Assembly: GCA_040954595.2 (NCBI GenBank)
Contig: CM082579.2
Location: forward strand, 10,777,625 to 10,841,624
Reading direction: 5' to 3'
From: Balanoglossus misakiensis
Taxonomy: Eukaryota; Animalia; Hemichordata
DNA length: 64,000 bases
In this document: piece by piece, positions 5,091 through 47,031 of the stretch
How the letters are laid out: each line of letters starts with the position of its first letter
Numbering within the stretch: position 1 is the stretch's first letter
The notes under the pieces: generated by a model
What the model saw: only the letters and a program-made list of their open reading frames with translations
The model's database searches: none
Told to the model about the DNA's origin: nothing
Translations under genes and position numbers: made by a program

Positions 5091-5436
5091 TTAAAGGGCG
5101 GTGATCGTCTTATGCGCACGTTGCATAATTTTGTGTGTACGAACATTACGTCCAATCAAAATGTTCTGCAAATTTTGCGTTCAACGCATTCAAATAGTGG
5201 ACTGTCTTCATTTCCTTCCATATTTCATGCGCACCGTGTAAGTAGACTTTACTTTTGTCCCTTCTTTTCACCCAATTTGCTGTCATTTCCCCAATGTCCA
5301 ACACAGACTATGGTCCCTGCCATCTTGTCAGTTGCTAGGACAGCACAATTCCTTAAGGCATTGACTGTATACAGTTTTTGTAACCAGAGTCTCTGGTTTG
5401 GCAATCAATGTGCATAAGATGATCGTCGCCCTCTAA
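5091..5436. mobile_element. MITE, family C-related subfamily
   Basis: Shares its core with family C; TIR agggcg..gatcgtcttatgc. Homologue in the opposite orientation at 46693-47031. Confidence 0.7.
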
Positions 5437-7413: not shown

Positions 7414-7767
7414 TTAAAGGGACAAAGTCTCTCTCTCGTTGCCCATTTTCCATTAATTACGTTTGATACAAGACACCGTTTATGTGAATGTACATGTGTA
7501 TATGTAGTGAATGAACATTCAACCACACACAACTTCCATCCCGTTCGTAGGATATGAGAGTAAAAACGTGCCCAAAATGAATAAATGGTAGAGACCGATT
7601 ATTCATTTTGGCGAGTTTTTCACTCTCTAACTACAAGTTGGGTGGAAGGTGTGTGTGGTTGAACATTGATTCACTATATATCCACATGTAGAATAACATA
7701 AGTGGTGTCTTGTATCAAACATAATTAATGGAAAAGGGGCAGCGAGAGAGAGACTTTGTCCCTTTAA
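7414..7767. mobile_element. TTAA-flanked, nearly palindromic MITE, family A (Kolobok-like)
   Basis: ttaa-AGGGACAAAGTCTCTCTCTCG ... CGAGAGAGAGACTTTGTCCCT-ttaa, with long TIRs. Confidence 0.88.
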
Positions 7768-8588: not shown

Positions 8589-17939
<9,351 letters not shown>

Positions 17940-19741: not shown

Positions 19742-21037
19742 TGGTGACTGATGGCCATTATGGAATCAAATCTGATAATTGGAACTGAAAACCCTCCGAA
19801 TTCACTGAGAGCAAGTGGATTGTGTATGAACAGAGAACTGTATGCAGCATAGCCCTTTCTTTCTTATTTTGGTTCCGACTGGACCATTCAATAGGCCATA
19901 TAACCAAGGTGCTCTAGTGAAAGGGAAAGATTGACTTTGTCAAATGGGTGATAACAATTCAGTTTTCAGTTTCAAATGTGTCCTACAAGAGACCAACAAT
20001 TGTAAAGTGTGGTGGATTGCATTTTTTGTAAAGTTCAAAATATCATTAAAAGAAATACTTGTGTACATTTTCTTGTTTTGTGTAGTGGTAAATACTTACA
20101 GAGGCACTGGAAGACAGGTAGGGATCTCGTGCTGATGTGTTTACACAAATGGAACTTTTTTCGGATAGCAACATGTGTAGCAATGAGAATGAAAATAGTT
20201 CAGAAATGCATGATGATGGCAGAAAAAAAAATTGTATCAGTACTTCGTCCGTTAAGAGCACACAAATAAGAATAGTTGAATGTACATCTTTTATTCGTAT
20301 AACATATAATGCAACAATATTATGGAAACCACATTTTATATAATAAAGTAAAATCCAGCAAAAGGTAAAAAACTTGAATATCATCGACCATTCACACAAG
20401 TGCAACAAGTAATTTTACACAATGCACAATATCTACTGAAATCTGTGTCTCACAAATTGGGACATGATGCAACATGATACATTCACGTACACACAAAGCA
20501 AACTACAAGGAAAGATTGAGCCATAAGGTGCATCTAGTTCTCAATGATTGAGTGAGGTTATTTGCCACGAGCTGATAACTGACTACAATGGATATGCTTC
20601 GCCATATTTTTACAGTGATACACTGTGACAACTGTCATTTGACAGTGTATAAAGCATGGTCTGAGTTTAGATAAAAACAATTTGTAAGATTACAAGTACC
20701 ATCAGTTTGTGCATGCCCATTGGAAAAGTAAACAATATCTGCTAATTTCAAGGCCATCTAAATGTGTATTTGTGTCATAAACCAAAAAAAATTCTTGTTA
20801 TAGTGAATATTTTGCTGAAATCATTTATATACAAATCTTATTTAATTATTATTATTAATATAAATACTCTTCCTGTTAGTGAGGACTTTGGCATTATTTT
20901 GATGAAAATTGAATGCACTGTTATGAGATAGCTGAAAGTTATCAGTAAATGTTAAAAAACACATCAAAGTAAATGGTGACATCATATCCAGTCACAGGTT
21001 CTCCAACAGAGAGGAAGCTCACTTGATCATATATCCT

Positions 21038-24000: not shown

Positions 24001-25232
24001 ACAGCAGTGCACGCCACTGGACAAAAAAATTATTCATGACCAGATGTAAAATACACGTGCAACTTGTGTGTGACTGATTGACTCAAACTTACACACAGTT
24101 AATACTGGGTTCATGAATTGAACGCCATACAAAATTCAAGGAATTTTTGAGGTAAGCAATACCACATGATGTACACTACCAAAAGGATCTTTTCCACATT
24201 GTGGACTGGGTGTGCTTATTCAGGCCAGTCATTTCACAGTCAGTGTATGGGTTATGTTAGCCTAGTCCTAGCCGCATTTTGTTAGTTTTGGAAGCAAAGC
24301 GGACAAAATACGGCTAGGACTAGGCTAGGGTTATGTATATATCACAGAATACTGCAGTACTGTTTGTACAAAGTGCAAAACAAAAACAGTTCAGGATTGT
24401 CTTAGAAGAGTCACTGGATGTGAATAACATACTGATCAAGCATCAACAGTAAAACTAGTCTCCCACTGGTTTTATTCAAAGCCTCATTACTGAGCGAAAT
24501 ACATCCGCGATATCTCATTAATATTCATGAAGTATATAAAAGCTAAGTGAAGACAAGATACAGTGTCATTCCTCGGCTAGGCACCGACGAGCGAGCATGG
24601 AAGCTGCAACTCGAACCACTAGCACTACAAGAACTACAAGTACCGTGAGCGATGCAAGTGCTTCTTTCGTACAGGCGCATAGTCAGCCCGTTCCCAGTAC
24701 AAGCCGTACCCAGGGACCGCAAAAGACAACTCGTACGAGTACTGTTCCCATGCAACCTGCAGGACCAGCAGTAGCTGCAGCTGCCTCAGCGAACGATACA
24801 GTGACAGAGGATAAAGAGAAGCAGGTATACATTGTTGTATATTTTCCGTCTTTTCTACAGGTGTTATATTTGCCATAGAATGCAGGTGTCAAGTGTGTTT
24901 CATCACAGCCACAATGACCGTTTCATTGTGTCCGACGTACTTGTTTCGTGGCAGGGTGTGGTCCCATTTTTTCCTAGACAGGATAGTTCAATAGGTGGAT
25001 TTGATACGTTAGGCCGGGCGAAAGCTCGTGTTTTTTTTGGACATTTATTTCTTATTCCCCTTTTTTTGTTTTTAGTAAACTGTTATAATTATTGTTTTTG
25101 ACGGAGGGAGTCGCAGCTCAATGTTCTTTTCTTGTTGAGTAGTCGTGTGAATAGCTTTTGTACGGCTTACCATGTGTGAATTTTGTGGGCCCTAGTTAGT
25201 AACTTTTTTATGCTAAAATTTTTGTAGCGCCG

Positions 25233-25273
<41 letters not shown>

Positions 25274-28099
25274 AAAGTGCCATTTTTTTTTTTTTGCGTG
25301 GGCACACAGTTGATGGTAATGCCAATTTTGTGGGCAGAGTTGATGAAAGTGCCAAATTTTGTGGGCACAGTGGAGGACAAGTAAGTGCCAATTTTTGTGG
25401 GCACAGTGGATAAAAAGTGCCAATTTTTGTGGGCAAAGTGGATGAAAAGTAAGTGCCAATTTTTGTGGGCACAGTGGATGAAACGTAAGTGCCAATTTTT
25501 GTGGGCATAGTGGATGAAAAGTAAGTGCAAAATTTTGTGGGCATAGTGGATGAAAAGTTAGTGCCAATTTTGTGGGCACAGTGGATGAAAAGTGAGTGCC
25601 AATTTTTGTGGGCACAGTGGATGAAAAGTAAGTGCCAATTTTGTGGGCACAGTGGATGAAAAGTAAGTGCCAATTTTTGCGGGCACAGTGGATGAAAAGT
25701 GCCAATTTTTGTGGGCACAGTCGATGAACAATGAATGCCAATTTTTGCAGGCACAATAGATGAAAGTAAGTGCCACATTTTGTGAAACTGCGGTGGCTGG
25801 TGATTGCAGGCTAGTCGTAAATATTTGGACTTGCAATTGATGAATTATGGCGTATTTGTATTTTCCAGATGCAATCAAAATTTAATGACTTAGTGACGAA
25901 GGTGGAAGAAATGGAGAAAGCTGTTGGCGGGGCTAACGTGGATGATGCTCTTCAAAAGTTGATGGAGATAGCCCATGCACCATCCTTTTATACGTCACGG
26001 CTACAAATAACGAATGCACTTCGTACACTAGTGGATAGAGCTACTAGGGTAGCCCACCCTAAATTAGCACGGTTTAGGGCCGTGTTAGCTCAGTTTGAAG
26101 CAAATGATTTTGGACCCGATGCTGGCCGTTTGATAGTGTTGTTACTTGGGAATAAAGAGGAGGAAGAAATCGCTGCCAAGGTCGCCAAGTTCGCCAATAG
26201 TAATGCTAGTAATTCCTTCGGGGCTCGTAGATACTATCGTTTTCAACCATATAACCAGAGGGCAGGTTCTACTTTTGAACGTCCCAAAAGAGAGCTTAAA
26301 TGTTATACATGTGGCAAGCCTGGCCACCTTGCTCGTGAGTGTAGAGGAAAACAAAATGAACATTGAGTTTCACTAGAGAACATGTGATTGTGTATTTTGA
26401 GAATTTCCCTTGGCAGATGCCATTGTAAATAAAATTTCAAAAAAAAAAAAAAAAAAATTTCAACTGTATACGCTTAGTGTGTTAGTGTCTCATTTAGACT
26501 TCCTTGACAGGGGGGCCTCACTTAGGCCCTTTGCTTTTTGCAACCTGCCATTCGCATGGTCCTGTCTTGGGGGGCCTTCTGTGGGATACTTGTTTTGCAT
26601 AAGTATATTTTAGTCGTGCGTGTTTGTTGTTTCAGTTCGATGTACCAGAATGGGAGTTACAATATCCGGTTGATCCGACGGTGGTTAAACGAAATCACTA
26701 CAATTGGGTGACCATAGAGGGCGCCCCTCGACGGGACAATGATGGTGGTAGGATGGTGGAGGACATGGATCAGCTATCTGGGTTTACGGTCGCTTTTTAG
26801 CATTGAATAGAACAGATTTGGGATAAAACACTACACACCATTACGCCCATTTTAAAACAGAAAGGATATACAAAATATAGAATACTGACAGAGGTGAATA
26901 TAACCTATTTGAGTGTCTCATGTACAGACAAGTTGTTTGGTGTGGAAAATAATTTAGTATTAGCCCTAGTGGTATAGGGTATACAATGAAGTAAAATATA
27001 ATTTTTGACGAATTAACTGCACTCAAGGTTGTATGTATGATAATATATTTGGTATGTTTGGGGTGTCTGTATGGGGTGCGCTGGGAAGTGTAGTATCAGG
27101 TATAGGGTTGGGGATGAGTTGTGGGAGAGTGAAGGGAAAAGCTTTTTGAAGATTTGGAGGATTGGGTGGAATGTAAGTTAGTATTGGAATGTTAGATAAC
27201 CGCGGCAAAGATGAAAACAATGAACATCCCGATCCCAATACTTAAACAATAGGATAATCCTTGAGCGGAGTGATGAGGCTTTGAATATTATATTATTCAA
27301 AGCCTCATTACTGAGCGAAATACATCCGCGATATCTCATTAATATTCATGAAGTATATAAAAGCTAAGTGAAGACAAGATACAGTGTCATTCCTCGGCTA
27401 GGCACCGAGGAAGAGGGCAAGAACTGCGAACAATTTAGGGGTATTGCTGATCAGGTGGAATGTATGTTCATGGCACAGGCGGGTCAAAATTTCCCACCCA
27501 CCCACCCTCGCCTTGAATGTCTTAATCACTTCGCTTCTGGATTTCCACAATGAACATCCCGATCCCAATACTTAAACAATAGGATAATCCTTGAGCGGAG
27601 TGATGAGGCTTTGAATATTATATAATTTCATTCCTACCTCTCTTTGTTTACATCCTTTCAATGAACATTTATTGCTGTATGCTTTGCGTTTCTTCTTAGC
27701 AGGATCAGACTGACAATCTGCATCAATGTGTTGTGACATTTTGATATCAGGTGGTTCACCTCTTGCTACGGGTACTGGTTGATTGCATAGTGGACAAACA
27801 GGCACTTGTACATCCTAAACACAAAATTGAAAAATTAGTACCAATGGCTCTGTAGTGACAATAGACTTCATTGCAAAATAAAGATGAAATAAGCAACACT
27901 TACCCCCCAAAAAAATGATTATATTATGGGCAAATAAGCGTGTGATTAATATTTGCATTTTGGCAGTGATCTCACGTTATACTGGTAGTTAAGTTACCGA
28001 CACTCTTCAAGGAATATGAAATATTATAATAACTTTAAGTTACATACCTTCTGGAAGGAATATTCACAATTATGAGACTTGTATGTTATGTGGTCTTTG
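21038..28099 (-). CDS. ZFAND2B: AN1-type zinc finger protein 2B-like (AIRAPL); 5'-incomplete in this sequence
   Basis: Phase-consistent exons 28099-28048 (C KDHITYKSHNCEYSFQK), 27814-27638 (DVQVPVCPLCNQPVPV...CSLKGCKQRE), 23977-23886 (LVPVVCGNCRLNFCLKHRHQTDHQC), 23250-23227, 22648-22538, 22294-22228, 22009-21912 (UIM SEDEAMSRALQMSL), 21512-21419 (UIM QEDLALAQAIAES), 21076-21038 (ends CSVA*, a CaaX box). Exons for the start and the first half of AN1 finger 1 were not found. Confidence 0.92.
21345..21414. mobile_element. Truncated family B MITE abutting a ZFAND2B splice donor
   Basis: One TIR present, ending aaagtgttttacagta at 21414; the donor GT is at 21418-21417. Confidence 0.75.
22841..23189 (-). 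mobile_element. MITE family C copy carrying an intact 72-aa mini-ORF
   Basis: TTAA TSDs and TIRs; ORF 23078-22860 MAATILCVGDREKTPAWVKRTDKTRIYL... Confidence 0.82.
23393..23706 (-). mobile_element. Non-autonomous piggyBac MITE with termini matching the large piggyBac
   Basis: ttaa-CCCTTATGCTACTGGG ... GACTTGGCAGCGTTAGGG-ttaa. Confidence 0.8.
24258..24327. mobile_element. 70-bp palindromic mini-element with 9-bp TSD (Academ-like)
   Basis: TAGCCTAGTCCTAGCCG...CGGCTAGGACTAGGCTA, flanked by GGGTTATGT on both sides. Confidence 0.75.
24533..24572 (+). promoter_or_regulatory. TATA box and Inr-like element inside repeat A of the retroelement
   Basis: TATATAAAAG at ~24533, TCATT about 30 bp downstream, ATG at 24597. 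Duplicated in repeat A2. Confidence 0.5.
24597..26366 (+). CDS. Gag-like protein with CCHC zinc knuckle, probably two exons (24597-24824, 25869-26366; 241 aa)
   Basis: ORF 25869-26366 ends in CYTCGKPGHLAREC. The upstream S/T-rich ORF ends CAG|gtatac, phase 0, and joins ttttccag|ATG in frame. Confidence 0.7.
25271..25780. repeat. Minisatellite, ~30-35 bp unit (aagtgccaatttttgtgggcacagtggatgaaaagt), roughly 14 copies, preceded by a long A run
   Basis: Tandem units visible directly; they produce the repetitive spurious ORFs at 25167-25878. Confidence 0.9.
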
Positions 28100-28970
28100 C
28101 TGAAAAAGAAAAATTACAATATATTTCTGGTTAATTAGGTGGGTATTCAAATATGATCTAAAAAATTACATGTACGGTACGTAGTACCGGTAATATTTAT
28201 ATCAACACAGTTAATCGCATCATATCAAAGTTGGATGCTATTGAAAATGATGGTGTCCTAAAATACTTCCTCTCAAAGTTCTTAAATAAAGTTTGATTTC
28301 TACAGTTGTAAATTTGTATGTGTCAATGCACTCTCGCCATATGTATAGGGCTTGCAAAGCATATGGAGCTACTGTGTGACAGGGCTGTGTATATTAACCC
28401 TAACGCTGTCGAGTCCGTAGCAGACCGCCCGATTTCCGGTGTGGGTAGAAGTCGGACGTTGGCGAGTGATGAACGACCGAATCGGTATGGATCGATATGA
28501 TTCGCCGACCCGCTGGAGTCTCTAGGCGTTTGCGTGCGCTTCGCTATAACGGGTTGACTTTGAACTACCGTTTTGAGGGCAAAATCTGTTAGGACAGGAA
28601 AGTCTCGACAGGGTTATTTGCCTTGAACTACAAAGAGCACACTATCCTTAGAGGCAAATTCCGCCGGTCACCCCCGACCCTGGGGAGACCGTTTTTTTAT
28701 GTGTCCGCAAAAACGTACTCGACAGCGATGCATAGTTTTCCATAGCAGACGGTTCCACAACGACATAGGGTATCGACCTTTTCGATGGCCAGACGTGTCG
28801 GACGCACTCGTGGGTGCCTGTTTAGGAGAGTGCGTTTTGGGATCGACTCGGGAAAACATGACGATTTTTGCTGATGGTGCGAACCGATGACCGACGTCTT
28901 GGCGTGCGTGCGTCGCAGGCCATATCTTTCGCGACCGACTCGTAGCCTACAATTACTCGTGAAAGAAAAC

Positions 28971-29613
28971 TTGGTACGGACAGGCTTTGACGGGACTTGG
29001 CTTGCGTAGCCAGCGGCACAAGTGTGTAAAAAGCGACTGGGTGTGCATTTTGACGAAACGGCCGACGATGTTAACCGACTCGTCGTTTACACCCCGGTTC
29101 GCGACACATTGGATCGGACAGGTTTTGACGGGACTTGGCTTTGCGTAGCCAGCGGCACGAGTGTGTAAAAAGCGACTGGGTGTGCATTTTGAAGTAACGG
29201 CCGACGATGTAGACCGACTCGTCGTTTACACCCCGGTTCGCGACACATTGGATCGGACAGGTTTTGACGGGACTTGGCTTTGCATAGCCAGCGGCACGAG
29301 TGTGTAAAAAGCGACTGGGTGTGCATTTTGACGTAACGGCCGACGATGTAGACCGACTCGTCGTTTACACCCCGGTTCGCGACACATTGGATCGGACAGG
29401 TTTTGACGGGACTTGGCTTTGCGTAGCCAGCGGCACGAGTGTGTAAAAAGCGACTGGGTGTGCATTTTGACGTAACGGCCGACGATGTAGACCGACTCGT
29501 CGTTTACACCCCGGTTCGCGACACATTGGATCGGACAGGTTTTGACGGGACTTGGCTTTGCGTAGCCAGCGGCACGAGTGTGTAAAAAGCGACTGGGTGT
29601 GCATTTTGACGTA
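28971..29613. repeat. 139-bp tandem repeat (~4.6 units) in the 5' region of piggyBac copy 1
   Basis: Units start at about 28971, 29109, 29248, 29387 and 29526. Confidence 0.9.
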
Positions 29614-30098
29614 AACAAAGCCGATGAATACGCTCTCGGTCCGGTGGGTTTTGCGTTACTCACCATTAGAGAACGACACAGTGTGCGGATGCCTGTAACA
29701 CAGGCTGGTGAATTGGACGGGTGTGTGCCGTAACGGTTCCTCGGTGCTGCGTGTTACCGAGGGGTATGTACAGACACGGGCGAAAGGCGTGCCTTGCATT
29801 CGCGTAACATACGGGACATGAGTTCTGCTTAGGCCGGACAGATGCGAAATTTTAACGTCATGGTCGATCAATACTTTCGGTATTGTTACGCAAATTGCCG
29901 TTCCAGATTTCCATTTCTGGCGGGAATTTTGAGGAGCCCCATAGGTCCGATTGCCTTCGGACATATTTTTGTGTCACGTGTTTGCGTACCTATATATTAG
30001 GCGTCCAATTAGATGGGAGAACGCCTGTCACAGGTTCATGTGCGACTGCTTATAAAAGGGGTGTTTCGTGGACAGTTTTGTCAGTACCACTACAGACC

Positions 30099-32798
30099 AT
30101 GAGTTTGACGGACCGAAAGAGTTTTTTGAAGGCAACCCGAAAGATTCGGAACCCGGAATCCAGTGGAACGGGCAGCGATCGCTATGATGTAGACTCCCCT
30201 GTTAGGAAGGGAAAGGCCAAGAAAAAGAAGGCAAAGAAACGCCTTTTGAGCGTCAGATTTGAGGAGACGGAGAAGCCTGGCGGGAAACGTAAGCGCAAGT
30301 CCAGTCGACCCGTTGTCGACTCGGACGATGAGACAGAAGCTCCACCCCGGAGTGATGAGGTGACTGCGGAAGCGGGCGAACCAGCCAGTACCCCGACAGA
30401 AGCTCCACCCAGGAGTGACGAGGTGACTTCAGAGGCTGACTTACAATCCAGTAAGCAGCAGAAGTCTGGCGGGAAACGTAAGCGCAAGTCCAGTCGACCC
30501 GTTGTCGACTCGGACGATGAGACAGAAGCTCCACCCCGGAGTGATGAGGTGACTGCGGAAGCGGGCGAACCAGCCAGTACCCCGACAGAAGCTCCACCCA
30601 GGAGTGATGAGGTGACTGCGAAGGCTGGCGAACCAGCCAGTACCCCGACAGAAGTTCCACGCGGGAGCGATCAGACGACCCCAGAGGCGGGCGAACCAGC
30701 CAGTTCCCCGCCAGTGACCCCATGTACGACAGATGATAGTCACGAGACCTCCCCAGAAGTGCCATCTGCTGCTCAGATGAGTCCTCATCAGGCAGTCGCC
30801 TCGACTTCCACTGGGAAGGTGGGATCATCCAAGAAAGCAGTAAAGAAAAAGGTGCGCTACAGTCCACCTGAGTTTGAGCCCGAAAAGATTTTGGACGCCA
30901 AAACAGGCTTGTTCCGATATAGACGGCCTGATGATGACCTTGAGGAGGATGAGGGAAACGTGACGGACATTGATGAGGATGCGGCAGAGGACGATAACTT
31001 TTACGAGCTGTCATTTCCTGGTACTCCATCTGAGGAGTCCGACTCCGAGAATGAAGCCGTAATAGAAGAGGCCATACGGCAGGCCTCCAAGGATGGGGAC
31101 GAGTGGCGTCTTTCGCAGCATGAGGACACTGAGATATTTTCCGAACCCCTGTTCGAGAAAGAGCGTGGACCCACGTTTACTATGGCAACACATGCACGGG
31201 AGTTGGAATACTTCCTGAAATTTATATCACCGGACATGATATCTCTGGCGGTGAAGGAAACGAACAAATATGCGTCGTATCACCAGCATTACGTCGCAAA
31301 GAAAATCGACTCTGAGTGGCGAGCGACCAATTACAGAGAGATGCAAGCCTTCCTGGGCGTTGTCATCATCATGGGCATTGACCGCAAGCCTGCTGTGGGC
31401 GACTATTGGTCCAGCGACATTTTCCTGCATAATGTTGGCATTTCGTCAGTCATGACCCGTCAACGCTACCACAGGTTGATGCGGTATTTCCACTTGGCTG
31501 ACCCCCAGAAGGATCCAAGACGAGACCCTGACCCGAACAGACGGTCACGCCGTTGTCAGGACGACCCAATGTATAAAGTAAACCCATGGATGGAGCCCCT
31601 TGTAAACAGTTGCGTACACAGCTATCAGATGGGACAGGAAATCTCCATCGATGAAGGCATGGTGAAATTCAAAGGACGTTCGAAATTCAAACAGAGGCTT
31701 CCCCACAAGCCAGACAGAGACGGCTTTAAGGTATGGCAGTTGGCGGACTCTGTCACATCCTATGTGGCAAACTTTGCTCCCTACCTGGGGGTGAAGTACC
31801 TTGACAGGAATGACGGGAAAAAACAGGAGAGGGGAGTAGTGAAAAGAATAACGATTGAACTTGTTCAGCCGTTCTGCGGGTACAACCACATCCTCTTCTG
31901 TGACAGCCTCTTCACAACTGTGTTAACTGCGAGAGAACTGATGGAGATGGGCATGTATATGGTTGGAAGCTTCAACCGACGTAACCGTCGGAGTATGCCG
32001 CCCATGCTTATTCCCCCCGGGAAAAAGAAGAAGCTTCCACTGGAGGTCGGTGAAATGAAGGCAGCCACCCGAGTCGATTGCCGAATCAACCTGACAGCTT
32101 ATCAGGATAGCAATGCACAGGTGTTGATCCTGAACAACGTTTATCCACCACTTGACACGGAGACAGTTGGCAGTGGTGAGGAAGAGAGAAATGTGCCCCT
32201 GAGTTTGTCGAAGTACCGCGTCTTCATGGGAGGCGTTGACCGCGCTAACCAGAAGCGAAAATACTACCACTGTGGGCGAAAGAACAACCGCTGGTGGGTA
32301 TATATGGCCTGGTACCTGATGGATGTAGCATTGACGAATGCTTACGTATGTTTCAAAGACCTTAACCCCCAGACCAAGGTGAAGCACAAGTTCTTCAACC
32401 TACGTGTTGGGAAGCAACTCATTGGCGGATTCTCCAGTCGTGGTCAAGGCAACGTACGGGAAATAGAGCGCACAGTTACTGACAGCTCTTTCATTTTCCC
32501 TGGAAACATACCCCAACACGTCGAAAGTAGATTACCTGGACGGCAGAAAACCTGCAAGCTATGCAGTAGGGAAGGCAAGAGGACCCTTTCTGGACGGCGT
32601 TCGGAGACTGTCATGGGATGTGCGCTCTGCCAAGTGCATTTGCATCAAGGCGAATGCTTCGCCTCGTTCCACCACCATATGATGCTACGAGGAAAGAAGA
32701 GCATCGGGACACAGTTTCCAGAAGGAGATGTGCGAGTTCGGCAGCCGAGACGGGACAAACCGCTCCGGCGAAGTTCCAGAAACACGGACCATTCCTAA
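30099..32798 (+). CDS. piggyBac transposase (PGBD4-like DDD domain, Cys-rich C-terminus, long acidic repetitive N-terminus), 899 aa
   Basis: ATG at 30099, downstream of TATAAAA at 30051. Catalytic motifs SIDEGMV, FCDSLFT, MGGVDRANQ; C-terminal CKLC...CALCQVHLH..CF; AATAAA at ~33403. Confidence 0.95.
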   Translation: MSLTDRKSFLKATRKIRNPESSGTGSDRYDVDSPVRKGKAKKKKAKKRLLSVRFEETEKPGGKRKRKSSRPVVDSDDETEAPPRSDEVTAEAGEPASTPTEAPPRSDEVTSEADLQSSKQQKSGGKRKRKSSRPVVDSDDETEAPPRSDEVTAEAGEPASTPTEAPPRSDEVTAKAGEPASTPTEVPRGSDQTTPEAGEPASSPPVTPCTTDDSHETSPEVPSAAQMSPHQAVASTSTGKVGSSKKAVKKKVRYSPPEFEPEKILDAKTGLFRYRRPDDDLEEDEGNVTDIDEDAAEDDNFYELSFPGTPSEESDSENEAVIEEAIRQASKDGDEWRLSQHEDTEIFSEPLFEKERGPTFTMATHARELEYFLKFISPDMISLAVKETNKYASYHQHYVAKKIDSEWRATNYREMQAFLGVVIIMGIDRKPAVGDYWSSDIFLHNVGISSVMTRQRYHRLMRYFHLADPQKDPRRDPDPNRRSRRCQDDPMYKVNPWMEPLVNSCVHSYQMGQEISIDEGMVKFKGRSKFKQRLPHKPDRDGFKVWQLADSVTSYVANFAPYLGVKYLDRNDGKKQERGVVKRITIELVQPFCGYNHILFCDSLFTTVLTARELMEMGMYMVGSFNRRNRRSMPPMLIPPGKKKKLPLEVGEMKAATRVDCRINLTAYQDSNAQVLILNNVYPPLDTETVGSGEEERNVPLSLSKYRVFMGGVDRANQKRKYYHCGRKNNRWWVYMAWYLMDVALTNAYVCFKDLNPQTKVKHKFFNLRVGKQLIGGFSSRGQGNVREIERTVTDSSFIFPGNIPQHVESRLPGRQKTCKLCSREGKRTLSGRRSETVMGCALCQVHLHQGECFASFHHHMMLRGKKSIGTQFPEGDVRVRQPRRDKPLRRSSRNTDHS

Positions 32799-32850
32799 AT
32801 TATTCCCCTCCCGAGAGGGTGACACGGGCTTCCGGTGAACCAGCCCCATT

Positions 32851-33360
32851 TGTGCGGACTTTAGTCATTTTTTTCTGTGGACCCCCACTAAATTATGCCC
32901 TTGAGTAGGGCTACGAGGTGACCGAGCCTCATTTACGGACAATGAAACACGGACTGTGAGAAACGGACAGGTTACTTGCGGACACTGAAACACGGATTGT
33001 GACATGGGCTCGTCTTGAACGAGCCCCGTTTGCGCGGACTTTAGTCATTTTTTTCTGTGGACCCCCACTAAATTATGCCCTTGAGTAGGGCTACGAGGTG
33101 ACCGAGCCTCATTTACGGACAATGAAACACGGACTGTGAGAAACGGACAGGTTACTTGCGAACACTGAAACACGGATTGTGAAATGGGCTCGTCTTGAAC
33201 GAGCCCCGTTTGCGCGGACTTTAGTCATTTTTTTCTGTGGACCCCCACTAAATTATGCCCTTGAGTAGGGCTACGAGGTGACCGAGCCTCATTTACGGAC
33301 AATGAAACACGGACTGTGAGAAACGGACAGGTTACTTGCGAACACTGAAACACGGATTGT
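32851..33360. repeat. 180-bp tandem repeat (~3 units) 3' of the transposase, copy 1
   Basis: Lines starting 32881, 33061 and 33241 are identical. Confidence 0.9.
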
Positions 33361-34778
33361 GTGATGTTACTGTAACGGTGCACGAATCACTCTTTTTTGG
33401 GAAATAAAGTGCTATTTATGAGGCAACCTGTGGTGGTGTTAATCCCTCTAATATGACGCACAGTAACGGGGGTCTTGTGTAAATAGTCGTCTGGTTCGAC
33501 ACTCGCCCCCGGCCGAAATGGTGCAATGGAGCCTGCAGAACTTGCGGGTTACCTGTGACCGTGTCGGTACAACCCTGTACCGTAAAAAACTATAGCGTAT
33601 TAACACCGTAATGAACGTCTGTCTACCGTGCGTAACTAACCAACGTGTCGTTATCACAACGTCCGTGTGTGTCTTGTGTGCGAGAATGAGTCGTTGTCAG
33701 GCGGCTGTAGAGCGGAACACTGTGCGCCAGTGTCCAGTCGTTCGCATTACGTGTCGAACTAACTCGTACCCTACGGGAAAGTGGCAGGGGAAGGGGTGCC
33801 CGAACACCCCTGGCGGTACACCCTGGGTACCCTACTAATAACTGATGGTGTCGTTGTTGTGACGTGATGTGGCGTGTACTAACACACTAACTTTACTTTC
33901 GTAAAAGTAAGCCTCGAAACGACGTTTACAGACGCTCCCCTCCCAGGGGAACGAACCCGATGACCCCACAACTTTTACCCGGTTAATTGTTGTTTGAGGT
34001 CCCGTCGACACGGGACGGTGCCAAACTTGAAGTCTAGCACGTTCAAAAGCAGCTAAAATGACCCTCCAAAAACCCGATTTTCAGGCAAAAAGCCTGGTAA
34101 TCCAGCGGGTGTAGAATGCCGGATTCTACATACACCGAAAAGGAGGCGGTCTCGTAACGACTCGGCAGCCCAACGGGTTTTGACCCCCGGTAGCAAGAGG
34201 GTTAACCCTAACGCTGTCGAGTCCGTAGCAGACCGCCCGATTTCCGGTGTGGGTAGAAGTCGGACGTTGGCGAGTGATGAACGACCGAATCGGTATGGAT
34301 CGATATGATTCACCGACCCGCTGGAGTCTCTAGGCGTTTGCGTGCGCTTCGCTATAACGTGTTGACTTTGAACTACCGTTTTGAGGGCAAAATCTGTTAG
34401 GACAGGAAAGTCTCGACAGGGTTATTTGCCTTGAACTACAAAGAGCACACTATCCTTAGAGGCAAATTCCGCCGGTCACCCCCGACCCTGGGGAGACCGT
34501 TTTTTTATGTGTCCGCAAAAACGTACTCGACAGCGATGCATAGTTTTCCATAGCAGACGGTTCCACAACGACATAGGGTATCGACCTTTTCGATGGCCAG
34601 ACGTGTCGGACGCACTCGTGGGTGCCTGTTTAGGAGAGTGCGTTTTGGGATCGACTCGGGAAAACATGACGATTTTTGCCGATGGTGCGAACCGATGACC
34701 GACGTCTTGGCGTGCGTGCGTCGCAGGCCATATCTTTCGCGACCGACTCGTAGCCTACAATTACTCGTGAAAGAAAAC

Positions 34779-35144
34779 TTGGATCGGACAGGTTTTGACG
34801 GGACTTGGCTTTGCGTAGCCAGCGGCACGAGTGTGTAAAAAGCGACTGGGTGTGCATTTTGACGTAACGGCCGACGATGTTGACCGACTCGTCGTTTACA
34901 CCCCGGTTCGCGACACATTGGATCGGACAGGTTTTGACGGGACTTGGCTTTGCGTAGCCAGCGGCACAAGTGTGTAAAAAGCGACTGGGTGTGCATTTTG
35001 ACGTAACGGCCGACGATGGTGACCGACTCGTCGTTTACACCCCGGTTCGCGACACATTGGATCGGACAGGTTTTGACGGGACTTGGCTTTGCGTAGCCAG
35101 CGGCACGAGTGTGTAAAAAGCGACTGGGTGTGCATTTTGACGTA
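34779..35144. repeat. 139-bp tandem repeat (~2.6 units) in the 5' region of piggyBac copy 2
   Basis: Units start at about 34779, 34918 and 35057. Confidence 0.9.
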
Positions 35145-35629
35145 AACAAAGCCGACGAATACGCTCTCGGTCTGGTGGGTTTTGCGTTACTCACCATTAG
35201 AGAACGACACAGTGTGCGGATGCCTGTAACACAGGCTGGTGAATTGGACGGGTGTGTGCCGTAACGGTTCCTCGGTGCTGCGTGTTACCGAGGGGTATGT
35301 ACAGACACGGGCGAAAGGCGTGCCTTGCATTCGCGTAACATACGGGACATGAGTTCTGCTTAGGCCGGACAGATGCGAAATTTTAACGTCATGGTCGATC
35401 AATACTTTCGGTATTGTTACGCAAATTGCCGTTCCAGATTTCCATTTCTGGCGGGAATTTTGAGGAGCCCCATAGGTCCGATTGCCTTCGGACATATTTT
35501 TGTGTCACGTGTTTGCGTACCTATATATTAGGCGTCCAATTAGATGGGAGAACGCCTGTCACAGGTTCATGTGCGACTGCTTATAAAAGGGGTGTTTCGT
35601 GGACAGTTTTGTCAGTACCACTACAGACC

Positions 35630-38330
35630 ATGAGTTTGACGGACCGAAAGAGTTTTTTTGAAGGCAACCCGAAAGATTCGGAACCCGGAATCCAGTGGAA
35701 CGGGCAGCGATCGCTATGATGTAGACTCCCCTGTTAGGAAGGGAAAGGCCAAGAAAAAGAAGGCAAAGAAACGCCTTTTGAGCGTCAGATTTGAGGAGAC
35801 AGAGAAGCCTGGCGGGAAACGTAAGCGCAAGTCCAGTCGACCCGTTGTCGACTCGGACGATGAGACAGAAGCTCCACCCCGGAGTGATGAGGTGACTGCG
35901 GAAGCGGGCGAACCAGCCAGTACCCCGACAGAAGCTCCACCCAGGAGTGACGAGGTGACTTCAGAGGCTGACTTACAATCCAGTAAGCAGCAGAAGTCTG
36001 GCGGGAAACGTAAGCGCAAGTCCGATCGACCCGTTGTCGACTCGGACGGTGAGACAGAAGCTCCACCCAGGAGTGATGAGGTGACTGCGAAGGCGGGCGA
36101 ACCAGCCAGTACCCCGACAGAAGCTCCACCCAGGAGTGATGAGGTGACTGCGAAGGCGGGCGAACCAGCCAGTACCCCGACAGAAGTTCCACGCGGGAGC
36201 GATCAGACGACCCCAGAGGCGGGCGAACCAGCCAGTTCCCCGCCAGTGACCCCATGTACGACAGATGATAGTCACGAGACCTCCCCAGAAGTGCCATCTG
36301 CTGCTCAGATGAGTCCTCATCAGGCAGTCGCCTCGACTTCCACTGGGAAGGTGGGATCATCCAAGAAAGCAGTAAAGAAAAAGGTGCGCTACAGTCCACC
36401 TGAGTTTGAGCCCGAAAAGATTTTGGACGCCAAAACAGGCTTGTTCCGATATAGACGGCCTGATGATGACCTTGAGGAGGATGAGGGAAACGTGACGGAC
36501 ATTGATGAGGATGCGGCAGAGGACGATAACTTTTACGAGCTGTCATTTCCTGGTACTCCATCTGAGGAGTCCGACTCCGAGAATGAAGCCGTAATAGAAG
36601 AGGCCATACGGCAGGCCTCCAAGGATGGGGACGAGTGGCGTCTTTCGCAGCATGAGGACACTGAGATATTTTCCGAACCCCTGTTCGAGAAAGAGCGTGG
36701 ACCCACGTTTACTATGGCAACACATGCACGGGAGTTGGAATACTTCCTGAAATTTATATCACCGGACATGATATCTCTGGCGGTGAAGGAAACGAACAAA
36801 TATGCGTCGTATCACCAGCATTACGTCGCAAAGAAAATCGACTCTGAGTGGCGAGCGACCAATTACAGAGAGATGCAAGCCTTCCTGGGCGTTGTCATCA
36901 TCATGGGCATTGACCGCAAGCCTGCTGTGGGCGACTATTGGTCCAGCGACATTTTCCTGCATAATGTTGGCATTTCGTCAGTCATGACCCGTCAACGCTA
37001 CCACAGGTTGATGCGGTATTTCCACTTGGCTGACCCCCAGAAGGATCCAAGACGAGACCCTGACCCGAACAGACAGTCACGCCGTTGTCAGGACGACCCA
37101 ATGTATAAAGTAAACCCATGGATGGAGCCCCTTGTAAACAGTTGCGTACACAGCTATCAGATGGGACAGGAAATCTCCATCGATGAAGGCATGGTGAAGT
37201 TCAAAGGACGTTCGAAATTCAAACAGAGGCTTCCCCACAAGCCAGACAGAGACGGCTTTAAGGTATGGCAGTTGGCGGACTCTGTCACATCCTATGTGGC
37301 AAACTTTGCTCCCTACCTGGGGGTGAAGTACCTTGACAGGAATGACGGGAAAAAACAGGAGAGGGGAGTGGTGAAAAGAATAACGATTGAACTTGTTCAG
37401 CCGTTCTGCGGGTACAACCACATCCTCTTCTGTGACAGCCTCTTCACAACTGTGTTAACTGCGAGAGAACTGATGGAGATGGGCATGTATATGGTTGGAA
37501 GCTTCAACCGACGTAACCGTCGGAGTATGCCGCCCATGCTTATTCCCCCCGGGAAAAAGAAGAAGCTTCCACTGGAGGTCGGTGAAATGAAGGCAGCCAC
37601 CCGAGTCGATTGCCGAATCAACCTGACAGCTTATCAGGATAGCAATGCACAGGTGTTGATCCTGAACAACGTTTATCCACCACTTGACACGGAGACAGTT
37701 GGCAGTGGTGAGGAAGAGAGAAATGTGCCCCTGAGTTTGTCGAAGTACCGCGTCTTCATGGGAGGCGTTGACCGCGCTAACCAGAAGCGAAAATACTACC
37801 ACTGTGGGCGAAAGAACAACCGCTGGTGGGTATACATGGCCTGGTACCTGATGGATGTAGCATTGACGAATGCTTACGTATGTTTCAAAGACCTTAACCC
37901 CCAGACCAAGGTGAAGCACAAGTTCTTCAACCTACGTGTTGGGAAGCAACTCATTGGCGGATTCACCAGTCGTGGTCAAGGCAACGTACGGGAAATAGAG
38001 CGCACAGTTACTGACAGCTCTTTCATTTTCCCTGGAAACATACCCCAACACGTCGAAAGTAGATTACCTGGACGGCAGAAAACCTGCAAGCTATGCAGTA
38101 GGGAAGGCAAGAGGACCCTTTCTGGACGGCGTTCGGAGACTGTCATGGGATGTGCGCTCTGCCAAGTGCATTTGCATCAAGGCGAATGCTTCGCCTCGTT
38201 CCACCACCATATGATGCTACGAGGAAAGAAGAGCATCGGGACACAGTTTCCAGAAGGAGATGTGCGAGTTCGGCAGCCGAGACGGGACAAACCGCTCCGG
38301 CGAAGTTCCAGAAACACGGACCATTCCTAA
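35630..38330 (+). pseudogene. piggyBac transposase copy 2 with +1 frameshift in a T run near the start (real or sequencing error)
   Basis: ATG at 35630. T7 at 35653-35659 versus T6 at 30122-30127 in copy 1. The remainder is open to 38330 with the DDD triad intact. Confidence 0.75.
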
Positions 38331-38382
38331 ATTATTCCCCTCCCGAGAGGGTGACACGGGCTTCCGGTGAACCAGCCCCATT

Positions 38383-38892
38383 TGTGCGGACTTTAGTCAT
38401 TTTTTTCTGTGGACCCCCACTAAATTATGCCCTTGAGTAGGGCTACGAGGTGACCGAGCCTCATTTACGGACAATGAAACACGGACTGTGAGAAACGGAC
38501 AGGTTACTTGCGGACACTGAAACACGGATTGTGAAATGGGCTCGTCTTGAACGAGCCCCGTTTGCGCGGACTTTAGTCATTTTTTTCTGTGGACCCCCAC
38601 TAAATTATGCCCTTGAGTAGGGCTACGAGGTGACCGAGCCTCATTTACGGACAATGAAACACGGACTGTGAGAAACGGACAGGTTACTTGCGAACACTGA
38701 AACACGGATTGTGAAATGGGCTTGTCTTGAACGAGCCCCGTTTGCGCGGACTTTAGTCATTTTTTTCTGTGGACCCCCACTAAATTATGCCCTTGAGTAG
38801 GGCTACGAGGTGACCGAGCCTCATTTACGGACAATGAAACACGGACTGTGAGAAACGGACAGGTTACTTGCGAACACTGAAACACGGATTGT
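38383..38892. repeat. 180-bp tandem repeat (~3 units) 3' of the transposase, copy 2
   Basis: Lines starting 38401, 38581 and 38761 are identical. Confidence 0.9.
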
Positions 38893-39862
38893 GTGATGTT
38901 ACTGTAACGGTGCACGAATCACTCTTTTTTCGGAAATAAAGTGCTATTTATGAGGCAACCTGTGGTGGTGTTAATCCCTCTAATATGACGCACAGTAACG
39001 GGGGTCTTGTGTAAATAGTCGTCCGGTTCGACACTCGCCCCCGGCCGAAATGGTGCAATGGAGCCTGCAGAACTTGCGGGTTACCTGTGACCGTGTCGGT
39101 ACAACCCTGTACCGTAAAAAACTATAGCGTATTAACACCGTAATGAACGTCTGTCTACCGTGCGTAACTAACCAACGTGTCGTTATCACAACGTCCGTGT
39201 GTGTCTTGTGTGCGAGAATGAGTCGTTGTCAGGCGGCTGTAGAGCGGAACACTGTGCGCCAGTGTCCAGTCGTTCGCATTACGTGTCGAACTAACTCGTA
39301 CCCTACGGGAAAGTGGCAGGGGAAGGGGTGCCCGAACACCCCTGGCGGTACACCCTGGGTACCCTACTAATAACTGATGGTGTCGTTGTTGTGACGTGAT
39401 GTGGCGTGTACTAACACACTAACTTTATTTTCGTAAAAGTAAGCCTCGAAACGACGTTTACAGACGCTCCCCTCCCAGGGGAACGAACCCGATGACCCCA
39501 CAACTTTTACCCGGTTAATTGTTGTTTGAGGTCCCGCCGACACGGGACGGTGCCAAACTTGAAGTCTAGCACGTTCAAAAGCAGCTAAAATGACCCTCCA
39601 AAAACCCGATTTTCAGGCAAAAAGCCTGGTAATCCAGCGGGTGTAGAATGCCGGATTCTACATACACCGAAAAGGAGGCGGTCTCGTAACGACTCGGCAG
39701 CCCAACGGGTTTTGACCCCCGGTAGCAAGAGGGTTAATGGTGAGGAATTTAAAAGATAGGGGGAAGATTAGAAAACAAATATGTAAAATTTGGCAGCTCT
39801 AGAGGCTTTAACGTTCTTATAAACCATCAAAACTCTGATAGCCGGATGTTGAAGACATTTAC

Positions 39863-42800
39863 CTTGCATAATGACAAAGATAACATTTCACTCTCCATGT
39901 TTTCAGACTGTAAATCAAATCTTCGTCTCCTGATATTGAAGGCTGACAATGTTCCATCGCCACTGTTGAGTAAATTAGAGACATTTTCAACTCCCGCATT
40001 TTGAAGTTTTCCATTGTCAAAATCTACCCAACAACCACACTGAATGTTTTTGTATATATTCTAAATGCACTATTAAAGGGACAATTAGTCTCTCTATCGC
40101 TGCCCCTTTCCCATTAATTATGTTTGATACAAGACACCGTTTATGTTATTCTACATGTGGATATATAGTTAATCAACGTTTAACCACACACAACTGCCTC
40201 CCAACTTGTAGACACAAGAGTGAAGAACTCACCAAAATGAATAATCGGTGTTAACCACTTATTCATTTTGGCGAGATTTTGACTCTCATATATCCTACAA
40301 ACAGGATGGAAATTGTGTGTAATTGAACGTTATTCACTATATATCCACATGTAGAATAGCATAAACAATGTCTTGTATCAAACATAATTAATGGAAAAAG
40401 GGCAGCGAGAGTGAGACTTTGTTCCTTTAAAACTTTTGAATGGCCAGCTGGGTACCAACACAATCTCCGTCTGCAGTTTCACCTCACTTTTTACAATGAC
40501 AGACAATTGCAATTCAAAATGGATTTCTTTTTCAACATCACCAAGCATATAAAGCTCCAACAGACGTAATCATCACAGAAAAATCTGATATTCAACAACC
40601 AATTGAGAGGTTTCGCTACACAACATTTGCAAAATGAAAACTAGTGGCAAATACAAGACATGATGACTACACCAATTAAAAACAAAATGTACCTAAGGTA
40701 TATGTACATGTACTTCAAATACTGGCGATATGGCCAAGCGCAGGTCAAATGAATGCTACCACAGAAATGGGTAATGTGTAAATAAAAGATGACTACACAC
40801 TGAGACTCTCATACTGACCATAAATGACATATAAATTGCCCATCACTATGTTTACAAATCACAGTGGATAGTGGGGGGGGGGGGGGTTACCTTGTTGCAA
40901 GCAGGATCTTTTTACCATTATCTATAACCATATCACTGATAAATTCTTCTGTCTCTTTCATTTCCATGATTGGTTTGTCTTTCCTCAAATCCCACAACTT
41001 GAAGTCAGAAGATGAAATATAAAAGGATATAAAAGGAACAGTTTAAAAGAAAAGAAAAGGTTGTACCTGAGGTAAAACTTGACTATTACATATTTCATGA
41101 TTTATGTGACTAATGTTTTGAAAGAAATTGCCAAAACTGTGATTGATGGTCACTTCGTTGCTGGGTGTTATCACAACTTCATGGCTGTAACCATGGAGAA
41201 GTGTTCAATCATGTTCCACATTTTCACAAAGCATGGAGACCACCTCAAATTTGATGTCTTTACGTTATTTTTATGAAGATTTGTGAGTTAAAGATCAGTA
41301 ACACGATGTTGACTTTTTATACAAAGTGCCTGTCATGGTGCTTGTTCCTTGTTGAAAAAAAAAATTTCTTTTACAGGTGATACAGTGGTACAGAGTTATC
41401 TTAGTTCTATGTTAGTCTCAATTTAAAATGCAAACAAATCATCATCTAAAGTTCACATTGTTTTCTCATTTCAAGTGATGCTGATGTGAATTCCATTACT
41501 GCACTTACTTTAAGGTGGCCATCATCATCTCCTGTTGCAATCATATTTTCATCAATGACAAGCAAAGAGTAGATTGGGCATTCGTGGGCTTTTTTAAACT
41601 TTTGTTTCACTTCTCCAGTGGTTACATCTACGACTTTGAAAGACTTGTCTTTTGATGCAGTGCACAGACCTTGAGGAATGACAAAACAAAAATGATTCAG
41701 TTCAGTTCAATGGTTCCTGTTGCTGTCTCTTTAAAGGCTATAGATCATCTCACACACACGCGCGTAACTTCCCAGCAAATTTTCCGTTCGATGCATTCAA
41801 ATAGTGGACTGCCTTCGCTTCCTTCCATATTTCATGCGCACTGTATAAGTAGATTCTGGTTTTGTACCTCCTTTTCACCCAAGCTGGTGTCTTTTCCCGA
41901 TCTCCGACACAGATTATGGTCGCCGCCATCTTCTCTGTTGTTAGGACAGAGCACTGCCTTATGGGATTGACTGTTCACTAAACAATGAATGTTCATGCAG
42001 ACATCCGGCATGATGACAGTCTTGTCGTTTGTCGTTTATAATACTTACTGTTCCCATCTTCTGTAAAGACAATAGCACGACAGGATTTTTTGTGATGTGA
42101 TAAAGTCAAAATGTTGCTGTTTTCCTCTAAAGAGTAGGAGTATCTGCAACAGTGAAAACAGAAACTGGGTTATTTGATTACCACTAGGTCAAAATGTCCA
42201 ATTTTTTCCTCAAGATGGATTTTTGGTGGTGATGGTGGTGGTGGTATGCATCTGGCACAGACACTTTAAGAAAGTTGACTTAAATTGTCATTAATAATAC
42301 GCCCACCCTCCAGTACTTGAGTACCTTCAGTAGTCAACTTTAATTAACTCTTAACGTAATATCTTAATGACCACTTGTTCAATAACGGTCCGGATCAGAC
42401 TCAGATAATACTTATAATACTTACAAGAGTACACTGCCATCAATTTGTCCACTTGCCAGGATTTCTTTTGTAGGATGAGCACTTAAACAGAGAACAACCT
42501 CTTCACAATCGATTGTCTTTGGAACAACAATTGTCTAAAAAAAAGAAGCAAAAAAGATGTGTGTTTTTTACTTGTAAAAAGCATTGTCCAGATTTTAATG
42601 AGGTCTAACAAACCTACAGGTAATGAGCAAAATAGTCTAGAATCTATCCGTTCGTAGTCGCATTCACCCTAGGTGAATGCGACTACGAACGGATAGATTC
42701 TAGACTATGAGCAAAATTGAGAGGCGGCAAACAACTTAATTAGTTAAGAATCTTTTGAAAGACAAAAAATGCCAAGCAACTTCATCATCACCACCACCAC

Positions 42801-43102
42801 CACCACCACCACCATCACCATCATCATCATCACCATCATCATCATCAGGGGGTGACGGGTGTACCCTCTTTCGAACTGAACTGAACCAGTATCAGAAGTC
42901 AATACGACATGTACAATGTCCATAAGCCCAGAAAAGGAAGGTGTAGAGTGGCATGAGATTCTATGAAAACAAACTCGCAAGTCTTAAGCGGTCCCGCATT
43001 TACGCTGACTATCATTCAATCAAATAATGGAAAGTGGAGGATGTCTATGGTAAAATTGAATAGTCAACATTGATCACGTTGTCTCACCTCGGAGGTTGCC
43101 AT
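39863..43102 (-). CDS. WDR55: WD repeat-containing protein 55; only the first 6 exons (196 aa) present
   Basis: Exons 43102-43088, 42534-42425 (..AHPTKEILASGQIDGSV), 42143-42049 (YSYS..HHKKSCRAIVFTEDG), 41669-41509 (LCTASKDKS..AHECPIYSLLVIDENMIATGDDDG), 40997-40891 (LWDLRK..EEFISDM), 39962-39863 (SGDGTLSAFNIRRRRFDLQSE..K|gt). The motifs track human WDR55. No further exons were found. Confidence 0.92.
40073..40430. mobile_element. MITE family A copy in a WDR55 intron
   Basis: TTAA TSD and family A TIRs. Confidence 0.85.
41731..41985. mobile_element. Truncated MITE family C copy
   Basis: Near-identical to the core of 577-888 (reverse orientation) and of 22841-23189. Confidence 0.75.
42633..42707. 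mobile_element. 75-bp perfect hairpin mini-element with 9-bp TSD (Academ-like)
   Basis: TAGTCTAGAATCTATCCGTTCGTAGTCGCATTCACC-cta-GGTGAATGCGACTACGAACGGATAGATTCTAGACTA, flanked by TGAGCAAAA on both sides. Confidence 0.8.
42782..42846. repeat. (CAT/CAC)n microsatellite
   Basis: Seen directly. Confidence 0.9.
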
Positions 43103-46692: not shown

Positions 46693-47031
46693 TTAAATGG
46701 CGTCGATCGTCTTATGCGCATGTGCCAAACCAGAGACTCTGGTTTAAAATATTATATACTGTCAATGCCAAAACGCAGTGTGCTGTCCTAACCGACAAGA
46801 TGGTGGCGACCATAGTCTGTGTCAGAGATCAGGGAAAAGTCAGCAAATTGGATGTAAAGAAGAGACAAACCAAAAATCTACTTGTACAGTGCGCATGAAA
46901 TATGGAAAGAAGCAGAGACAGTCCACTACCTGAATGCGTCAAACACAAAATTTGCAGAACATTTGGATTGGATTTATTGTCTGTACTCACAAAATCATGC
47001 ACATGTGCATAAAACGATCATCGGCCTTTAA
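46693..47031. mobile_element. MITE family C-related copy in the PGAP2 3'UTR
   Basis: TTAA ends; reverse-orientation homologue of 5091-5436. Confidence 0.7.

What the first reader, a model, noticed from the sequence alone, without database searches (positions are those of the whole stretch)
28048..39962. piggyBac tandem sits exactly where the 3' half of WDR55 and the 5' exons of ZFAND2B are missing
Seen: on the - strand WDR55 stops after 196 codons at a donor (39863), ~125 bp before the piggyBac pair. ZFAND2B resumes ~295 bp after the pair at an internal exon in the middle of AN1 finger 1. Neither gap contains the missing exons. The two copies share one TTAA and differ by SNPs and repeat number. 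Inference: a transposase-mediated deletion or rearrangement between two TTAA sites (joining the right end of one copy to the left end of another, or alternative transposition), or an assembly misjoin across repeats. A read-through transcript would hit a stop in exon 28099 but would be an in-frame WD40-AN1-UIM-CaaX fusion if that exon is skipped (phase 0 to exon 27814).
Basis: partly seen in the sequence, partly recalled or inferred. Interest (0 to 1): 0.7.

Follow-up and report, generated by a model that had tools for sequence, protein, structure and literature searches.

The report
Transposon pair seals a two-gene deletion
In what is likely an acorn worm, two near-identical piggyBac transposons sit head to tail between the front part of one gene (WDR55) and the back part of another (ZFAND2), likely because the transposons deleted the DNA between them on one chromosome copy, though an assembly error is not excluded.

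Summary
On the minus strand WDR55 ends after 196 codons, 125 bp from a head-to-tail piggyBac pair (5,804 and 5,528 bp, one shared TTAA, 29 substitutions). ZFAND2 resumes 294 bp beyond the pair at an out-of-phase internal exon. The missing parts are nowhere in the window. Contigs from two DNA runs of one sample show an empty allele at the left TTAA that continues into other DNA, so this is not a plain double insertion into one site. The two genes lie on records of the same length in 3 of 6 species, including the closest relative, Ptychodera flava, so the join is probably local. Weak hints favour a real one-copy loss: the empty allele has one-haplotype depth, and the spliced RNA contig carries only the other haplotype's letters. 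Best reading (0.55): a recent heterozygous piggyBac-made deletion, most simply the inner ends of two separate insertions joined through TTAA. An assembly collapse stays open (0.25): no read spans the pair and the right junction is untested. Known class of event, an unusually clean natural example; modest interest.

The parts
39863..43102 (-). WDR55 5' part, six exons, 196 codons, ends at a splice donor
39738..39862 (-). Remnant of WDR55 intron 6 (125 bp)
39734..39737 (.). Outer TTAA, WDR55 side
34206..39733 (+). piggyBac copy B, 5,528 bp; one extra T at about 35653 shifts the frame after the first codons; catalytic D residues intact
34202..34205 (.). Single TTAA shared by the right end of A and the left end of B
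28398..34201 (+). piggyBac copy A, 5,804 bp, with 139-bp and 180-bp subterminal tandem repeats
30099..32798 (+). Intact 899-aa transposase ORF of copy A (DDE_Tnp_1_7; D at 518, 602, 714; long repetitive N-terminus)
28394..28397 (.). Outer TTAA, ZFAND2 side; empty allele seen here in two DNA runs
28100..28393 (-). Remnant of the ZFAND2 intron upstream of the first surviving exon (294 bp)
28048..28099 (-). First surviving ZFAND2 exon (52 nt, starts in phase 2, second half of AN1 finger 1)
   Evidence: spliced to the next exon in run X3
21037..27814 (-). Remaining eight ZFAND2 exons to the stop, reading frame intact, CaaX end

Best explanation
A head-to-tail piggyBac pair joins the first six exons of WDR55 to the last nine of ZFAND2, and this is likely a real, recent deletion on one chromosome copy, likely made by the transposase. 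Shown: the anatomy, the single TTAA between the copies, an empty allele at the left TTAA that continues into other DNA, and two copies that differ by 0.5%. Inferred: (1) two different family members inserted separately, in the same orientation, one in a ZFAND2 intron and one in WDR55 intron 6 of the same chromosome; (2) transposase paired the inner ends (right end of A, left end of B) and cut them; (3) the DNA between them left as the donor flank; (4) the two transposon ends, each with a TTAA overhang after hairpin opening, were ligated to each other instead of inserting elsewhere. I give this route about 0.45 of the real-deletion cases; a flanking deletion plus a second insertion into the same TTAA gets 0.35, and recombination between a dimer and a third nearby copy 0.2. 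Both genes would be dead on this haplotype and covered by the other copy; read-through RNA would mostly hit the stop at codon 206 and be degraded.
For: (a) Empty allele: runs X1 and X2 each hold a contig that leaves the window right after the TTAA at 28397 with 133 other letters; the 30 letters shown match the window's right flank at 9 of 30 places (by eye, chance level) and their first 13 occur nowhere in the window. (b) Linkage: WDR55 and ZFAND2 lie on records of identical length in 3 of the 6 species listed in both searches (P. flava 50,616,078; Dendronephthya 2,213,081; Trichoplax 1,364,312). In P. flava the accessions are 86 apart (XP_070552498, XP_070552584-7); genes of one microsyntenic block in a published table span up to about 200 numbers. 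(c) Depth hint: subtracting the known contig from bin 28336-28381 leaves 23-26 (X1) and 58-66 (X2), one-haplotype level (21-31 and 54-57) and not the 1.8-fold expected if both haplotypes kept the DNA beyond the TTAA. (d) The spliced contig in X3 carries the non-window letter at all 4 exon differences, which fall in 2 clusters. (e) Those 4 differences are all silent and both gene remnants are open, so the break is recent. (f) The family looks young and able: intact ORF and three catalytic D, high summed depth inside the element. (g) piggyBac ends carry TTAA overhangs after hairpin opening (PMC7351741, passages); TTAA-to-TTAA deletions at a piggyBac end were seen in 2 of 49 yeast derivatives (PMC3064801, section 14). 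(h) WDR55 loss is recessive lethal in fish and lethal in null mice (PMC2515640, passages), in line with a one-copy state.
Against: No read or contig spans the 11.3-kb pair, and the WDR55-side junction was not tested with reads. The tool warns that contig depth is no copy number. The two haplotypes differ strongly in these introns (27868-27999 is replaced; an empty-site flank near 27625 matches only 23 of 30 letters), so one-haplotype depth can arise without any deletion; I weight hint (c) at about 2:1. Contig building keeps one allele per bubble, so hint (d) is at most 4:1. All three runs are one sample, probably the source of the window, so they are not independent. The genes are on different records in 3 of 6 species (Acanthaster, Priapulus, Tachypleus), and the Lottia ZFAND2B block lists no WDR55; adjacency, orientation and the size of the gap are unknown. 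The element has many near-identical copies, which is where assemblers err. End-to-end joints were a minority product in hAT episomes (3 of 38, 2 of 26, 3 of 60; PMC2803484, passages), and I found no paper showing them for piggyBac.
Confidence: 0.55

Rival explanations
1. Local assembly collapse: the chromosome carries a dimer in one intron and an identical single copy in the other, and the assembler jumped from one to the other, dropping real DNA.
For: Repeat of 11.3 kb built from a many-copy family (summed depth 486-685 inside the element against 21-46 in the flank in X1); no spanning read seen; an essential gene is cut.
Against: It needs three insertions close together on one haplotype, or two wrong overlaps. 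The copies are told apart by 29 substitutions. The depth and RNA hints lean towards one-copy DNA. A jump between unrelated loci would rarely land on two genes linked in relatives.
Confidence: 0.25
2. Balanced rearrangement: an inversion or move within the chromosome with this join as one breakpoint; the missing exons survive at a reciprocal junction on the same haplotype.
For: Alternative transposition yields inversions and translocations as well as deletions (10.1101/2020.01.07.897926, passages); the orientation of the two genes in the intact allele is unknown.
Against: The DNA beyond the left TTAA should then be at two-copy depth; it is at one-copy level (weak).
Confidence: 0.12
3. Plain double insertion into one TTAA, with the exons lost earlier for another reason.
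For: Head-to-tail dimers with one target duplication are common for DNA transposons (10.1101/158386, passages).
Against: The empty allele does not continue into the right flank; both outer ends are flush with TTAA. It would need a third, unseen allele in which the deletion ends by chance at a TTAA later hit twice.
Confidence: 0.05
4. A functional WDR55-ZFAND2 fusion gene made by skipping exon 28099.
For: 429 codons in frame with the CaaX end.
Against: It needs skipping of a normally used exon across an 11.8-kb intron; the WD propeller is cut part-way; the RNA contig over exon 27814 shows the other haplotype's letters.
Confidence: 0.03

Closest known systems
Alternative transposition of maize Ac/Ds (reversed-ends and sister-chromatid types)
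   Same: Ends of two nearby separate elements acted on together, giving deletions and other rearrangements (10.1101/2020.01.07.897926, passages).
   Different: Here the inner ends are joined to each other through one TTAA and not inserted at a new target; piggyBac, not hAT; a wild animal; mechanism inferred from one assembly.
Tandem transposon dimers by double insertion (Drosophila P, hobo; McGurk and Barbash)
   Same: Head-to-tail pair with a single target duplication between intact ends.
   Different: The outer flanks do not come from one site: the empty allele runs into other DNA.
End-to-end (signal-joint-like) joints of hobo/Hermes episomes and V(D)J signal joints
   Same: A right end ligated to a left end (PMC2803484, passages).
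   Different: There the joint is on an excised circle; here it would stay in the chromosome and the host DNA would be the part lost.
piggyBac / piggyBat transposases (PDB 6x67, 9c0f) and Saccoglossus PGBD-like proteins
   Same: Core matches at E 1.9e-29 and 3.6e-29; fragments from S. kowalevskii 55-65% identical; TTAA targets.
   Different: 899 aa with a 350-aa repetitive N-terminus, 5.5-5.8 kb element, very imperfect terminal repeats (10 of the first 16 bases), long subterminal tandem repeats.
TTAA-to-TTAA deletions with piggyBac in fission yeast
   Same: Deletion bounded by two TTAA, one at an element end (PMC3064801, section 14).
   Different: There part of the element itself was lost; here both copies are whole and host genes are cut.

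Membership tests
piggyBac superfamily | TTAA at both ends | tested here: met
   TTAA at 28394, 34202, 39734
piggyBac superfamily | DDD transposase of family DDE_Tnp_1_7 | tested here: met
   E 1.1e-67, above cut-off; three D align with piggyBat and are kept in both copies
piggyBac superfamily | Terminal inverted repeats beginning CCC | tested here: inconclusive
   Both ends begin CCCT but only 10 of 16 bases pair; a 306-bp element at 23397-23702 has the same unequal pair of ends
piggyBac superfamily | C-terminal cysteine-rich finger | tested here: inconclusive
   zf-Tnp_2 E 0.012, below cut-off; cysteines align with piggyBat
piggyBac superfamily | Transposition activity | not testable with these tools
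   Only indirect: open ORF, insertion polymorphism
Alternative transposition product | Breakpoints flush with element ends | tested here: met
   All four ends intact and flush with TTAA
Alternative transposition product | Outer flanks from two different sites | tested here: met
   Left empty allele differs from the right flank; shown from the left side only
Alternative transposition product | Two separate elements involved | tested here: inconclusive
   A and B differ by 29 substitutions and repeat number, so one is not a fresh copy of the other; their earlier positions are unknown
Alternative transposition product | Intervening DNA at one copy | tested here: inconclusive
   One-haplotype depth on a 165-nt contig only
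Alternative transposition product | Join present on real molecules | not tested
   No spanning read seen; WDR55-side junction without read data
Double-insertion dimer | Head-to-tail with one target duplication | tested here: met
Double-insertion dimer | Outer flanks rejoin to the empty site | tested here: not met

The most novel reading that the evidence does not exclude
A wild animal carries a chromosomal 'signal joint' made by piggyBac: the inner ends of two independent insertions were cut and sealed to each other through one TTAA, deleting half of an essential gene and the start of its neighbour without a scar. piggyBac's seamless chemistry would then be a route to clean deletions and exon fusions in nature, and some single-TTAA tandem dimers would mark deletions, not double insertions.
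Probability: 0.25. Interest if true: 0.5.

Novelty: new member of a known kind. Interest (0 to 1): 0.3.

Why it matters
If real, it is a clean natural case of a piggyBac family deleting host genes, although piggyBac is prized for leaving no scar; it would matter for how tandem dimers are read and for vectors placed close together. It is also a likely recessive lethal allele sitting in a reference assembly, so gene-loss claims for WDR55 or ZFAND2 in this species would be wrong. If an artefact, it flags a misassembly. Either way it concerns one allele of one animal, not a new system.

Tried and rejected
No whole genome is held, so the missing exons could not be sought elsewhere in the assembly. 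The run search listed no RNA holder; X3 proved spliced when laid. No contig bridging flank and element, and none for the shared TTAA joint, appeared among the 14 of 16 loose ends and the pieces shown (61 more pieces hidden): contigs drop such short links, so this is no evidence. The RNA contig stops at 28072 inside the first surviving exon: uninformative. Four other left-end flanks from the reads have no exact match in the window; three have one single-mismatch hit each, chance for 11-mers. The repeat at 41773-41983 looked like a WDR55 exon but is a five-copy dispersed repeat. Replication of one element as the source of both copies was rejected: they differ by 0.5%. Recombination between two single copies was rejected: it leaves one element. 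No paper holds both WDR55 and ZFAND2, none holds 'reversed ends', 'alternative transposition' and piggyBac; some searches gave listings without a natural piggyBac case that I could see from titles and abstract starts. Supplement searches for the gene pair were empty in PMC11175523, PMC11618098 and PMC11310086 (one file unreadable) and gave one ZFAND2B row in PMC8851819 (file cut), so unseen tables may hold the gene order. Earlier scan findings: none. The protein atlas did not answer.

Full report
Observation. Six GT-AG exons on the minus strand give 196 codons of WDR55 and end in phase 0 at 39863. Pfam WDR55 matches the three exons that were sent in frame, at profile positions 1-31, 68-120 and 121-155 of 296. 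Six full-length relatives align no further than codon 196, and a profile of residues 201-310 from 80 sequences finds only a cross-match to a WD repeat already in exon 4. ZFAND2 is present from residue 32 of the Ptychodera flava protein onward: nine exons, 250 codons, CaaX end. The first 31 residues are not found. Between them lie two piggyBac copies, 28398-34201 and 34206-39733, with TTAA at 28394, 34202 and 39734; they differ by 29 substitutions, 277 bp of subterminal repeat and one base. The leftover intron pieces are 294 and 125 bp.

Host and element. Exon 27814-27638 is 90% identical to P. flava, 85% to Glandiceps and 83% to Saccoglossus and Patiria, so the animal is likely an acorn worm (inference). 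Copy A encodes an 899-aa transposase (DDE_Tnp_1_7, E 1.1e-67) whose three catalytic aspartates align with piggyBat and are kept in both copies; B has a one-base shift in a T run near its start, which could also be a consensus error. The nearest named relatives are Saccoglossus fragments at 55-65% identity. The ends pair at only 10 of 16 bases, but a 306-bp TTAA-bounded element at 23397-23702 has the same unequal pair of ends.

Reads. One search found 3 runs, all of one sample, kept as contigs. Several contigs match the window without a difference, so this is probably the source animal and no independent witness. Laid on 27600-28960, X1 and X2 each hold a contig that leaves the window directly after the TTAA at 28397 and goes on for 133 other letters. 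The 30 letters shown agree with the window's right flank at 9 places (by eye), and their first 13 are not in the window. This is the empty allele, and it shows that the two outer flanks do not come from one insertion site. X3 is spliced (joint 27813 to 28047) and carries the non-window letter at all 4 exon differences, which the DNA runs confirm as alleles and which are all silent. The WDR55-side junction has no read data, and no record spans the pair.

Depth. Bin arithmetic reproduces a control bin exactly (55.65 against 55.6; 69.8 against 69.8) and leaves 23-26 in X1 and 58-66 in X2 for the empty-allele contig; one-haplotype contigs nearby have 21-31 and 54-57, shared ones 40-46 and about 107. 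A plain insertion would give about 1.8 times the one-haplotype figure. This leans towards a real one-copy loss, but weakly: the tool warns that such depth is no copy number, and the haplotypes differ much in these introns.

Linkage. Six species appear with a record length in both protein searches. In 3 of 6 the two genes lie on records of identical length: P. flava (50.6 Mb), Dendronephthya (2.2 Mb) and Trichoplax (1.36 Mb). In Acanthaster, Priapulus and Tachypleus they do not; the first two are fragmented assemblies. Accession numbers are 86, 166 and 44 apart; in a published microsynteny table genes of one block span up to about 200 numbers (PMC8851819, supplement 4, part 207). That is compatible with close neighbours but does not prove adjacency, and the Lottia ZFAND2B block in that table lists no WDR55. 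A random misjoin between unrelated loci is therefore unlikely; the join is probably local.

Mechanism. piggyBac cuts out with TTAA hairpins that are opened to four-base overhangs, and the donor flanks reseal without a scar (PMC7351741, passages). If the enzyme pairs the right end of one copy with the left end of a second copy further along, the host DNA between them becomes the donor flank and can leave, and the two ends have matching overhangs. Sealing them gives exactly flank-A-TTAA-B-flank. This needs two independent insertions, which fits the 0.5% difference between A and B, and one aborted reaction. Use of ends from two elements is established for maize Ac/Ds (10.1101/2020.01.07.897926, passages); end-to-end joints exist for hAT elements but are a minority (PMC2803484, passages); TTAA-bounded deletions at a piggyBac end were seen in yeast (PMC3064801, section 14). 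I found no paper showing this joint for piggyBac. All four steps are inferred. The alternatives are a flanking deletion plus a second insertion into the same TTAA (dimers by double insertion: 10.1101/158386, passages) and recombination between a dimer and a third copy, which is also the layout an assembler could collapse.

Consequence. With exon 28099 the read-through stops after codon 205, 685 nt before the last junction, which would invite nonsense-mediated decay (established knowledge). Skipping it gives 429 codons in frame, but with a cut WD propeller and without AN1 finger 1; nothing supports its expression. WDR55 mutants are recessive lethal in fish and null mice die before implantation (PMC2515640, passages), so the allele can likely persist only in one copy, as the empty allele suggests. 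Open frames and silent differences say the break is recent.

Verdict. Real heterozygous deletion 0.55, assembly collapse 0.25, balanced rearrangement 0.12, others 0.08. It works like alternative transposition; membership is not shown, because the join has not been seen on real molecules. New member of a known kind, interest 0.3. Earlier scan notes held nothing on it. Supplements that were cut or unreadable may hold the gene order in relatives.

Noticed in passing
window 24472-27627: A 3.1-kb insert 10 bp from a ZFAND2 donor with split direct repeats (24472-24590 = 27293-27411; 27217-27297 = 27547-27627) and a zinc-knuckle ORF at 25821-26366. The layout recalls Ngaro/PAT-type DIRS retroelements (recalled, not tested); no reverse transcriptase seen. 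A loose end at 27625 in X1 resembles the DNA left of 24472 (23 of 30 by eye), so the other haplotype probably lacks it.
   Followed up: partly
window 23393-23706: 306-bp non-autonomous piggyBac-type element, TTAA on both sides, ends related to copies A and B, opposite orientation, in another ZFAND2 intron.
   Followed up: partly
window 593-878, 5091-5436, 22915-23175, 41741-41983, 46693-47031: Five copies of a 200-350-bp dispersed repeat, 80-96% alike, in both orientations.
   Followed up: no
window 7414-7767, 8789-9148, 40073-40430, 63218-63445: Palindromic MITE-like family of about 360 bp; a second family at 9601, 21343, 45889, 59942, 63860.
   Followed up: no
window 39424-39429: One substitution gives copy B, but not A, an AATAAA on the minus strand about 430 nt past the WDR55 donor; it could end truncated WDR55 transcripts (speculation).
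   Followed up: no
window 54718-56367, minus strand: Single-exon 550-aa ORF with a signal-peptide-like start and coiled-coil character; only weak Pfam matches.
   Followed up: partly
window 18904-19741, plus strand: Possible three-exon gene for a very short protein (ATG at 18904, exons near 19240 and 19698), tail to tail with ZFAND2; not identified.
   Followed up: no
window 312-553 (+) and 8599-14400 (-): Two sets of KLF-type zinc-finger exons facing each other, suggesting two KLF genes.
   Followed up: no
proteins P0003/P0120, P0027/P0192, P0098/P0215: WDR55 and ZFAND2 share a scaffold in a hemichordate, a soft coral and a placozoan: possibly an old microsyntenic pair; no paper with both names was found.
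   Followed up: partly
run X3 on window 28393-28855: A diverged family member's left end (24 differences in 463 bases) is present in the spliced run.
   Followed up: no
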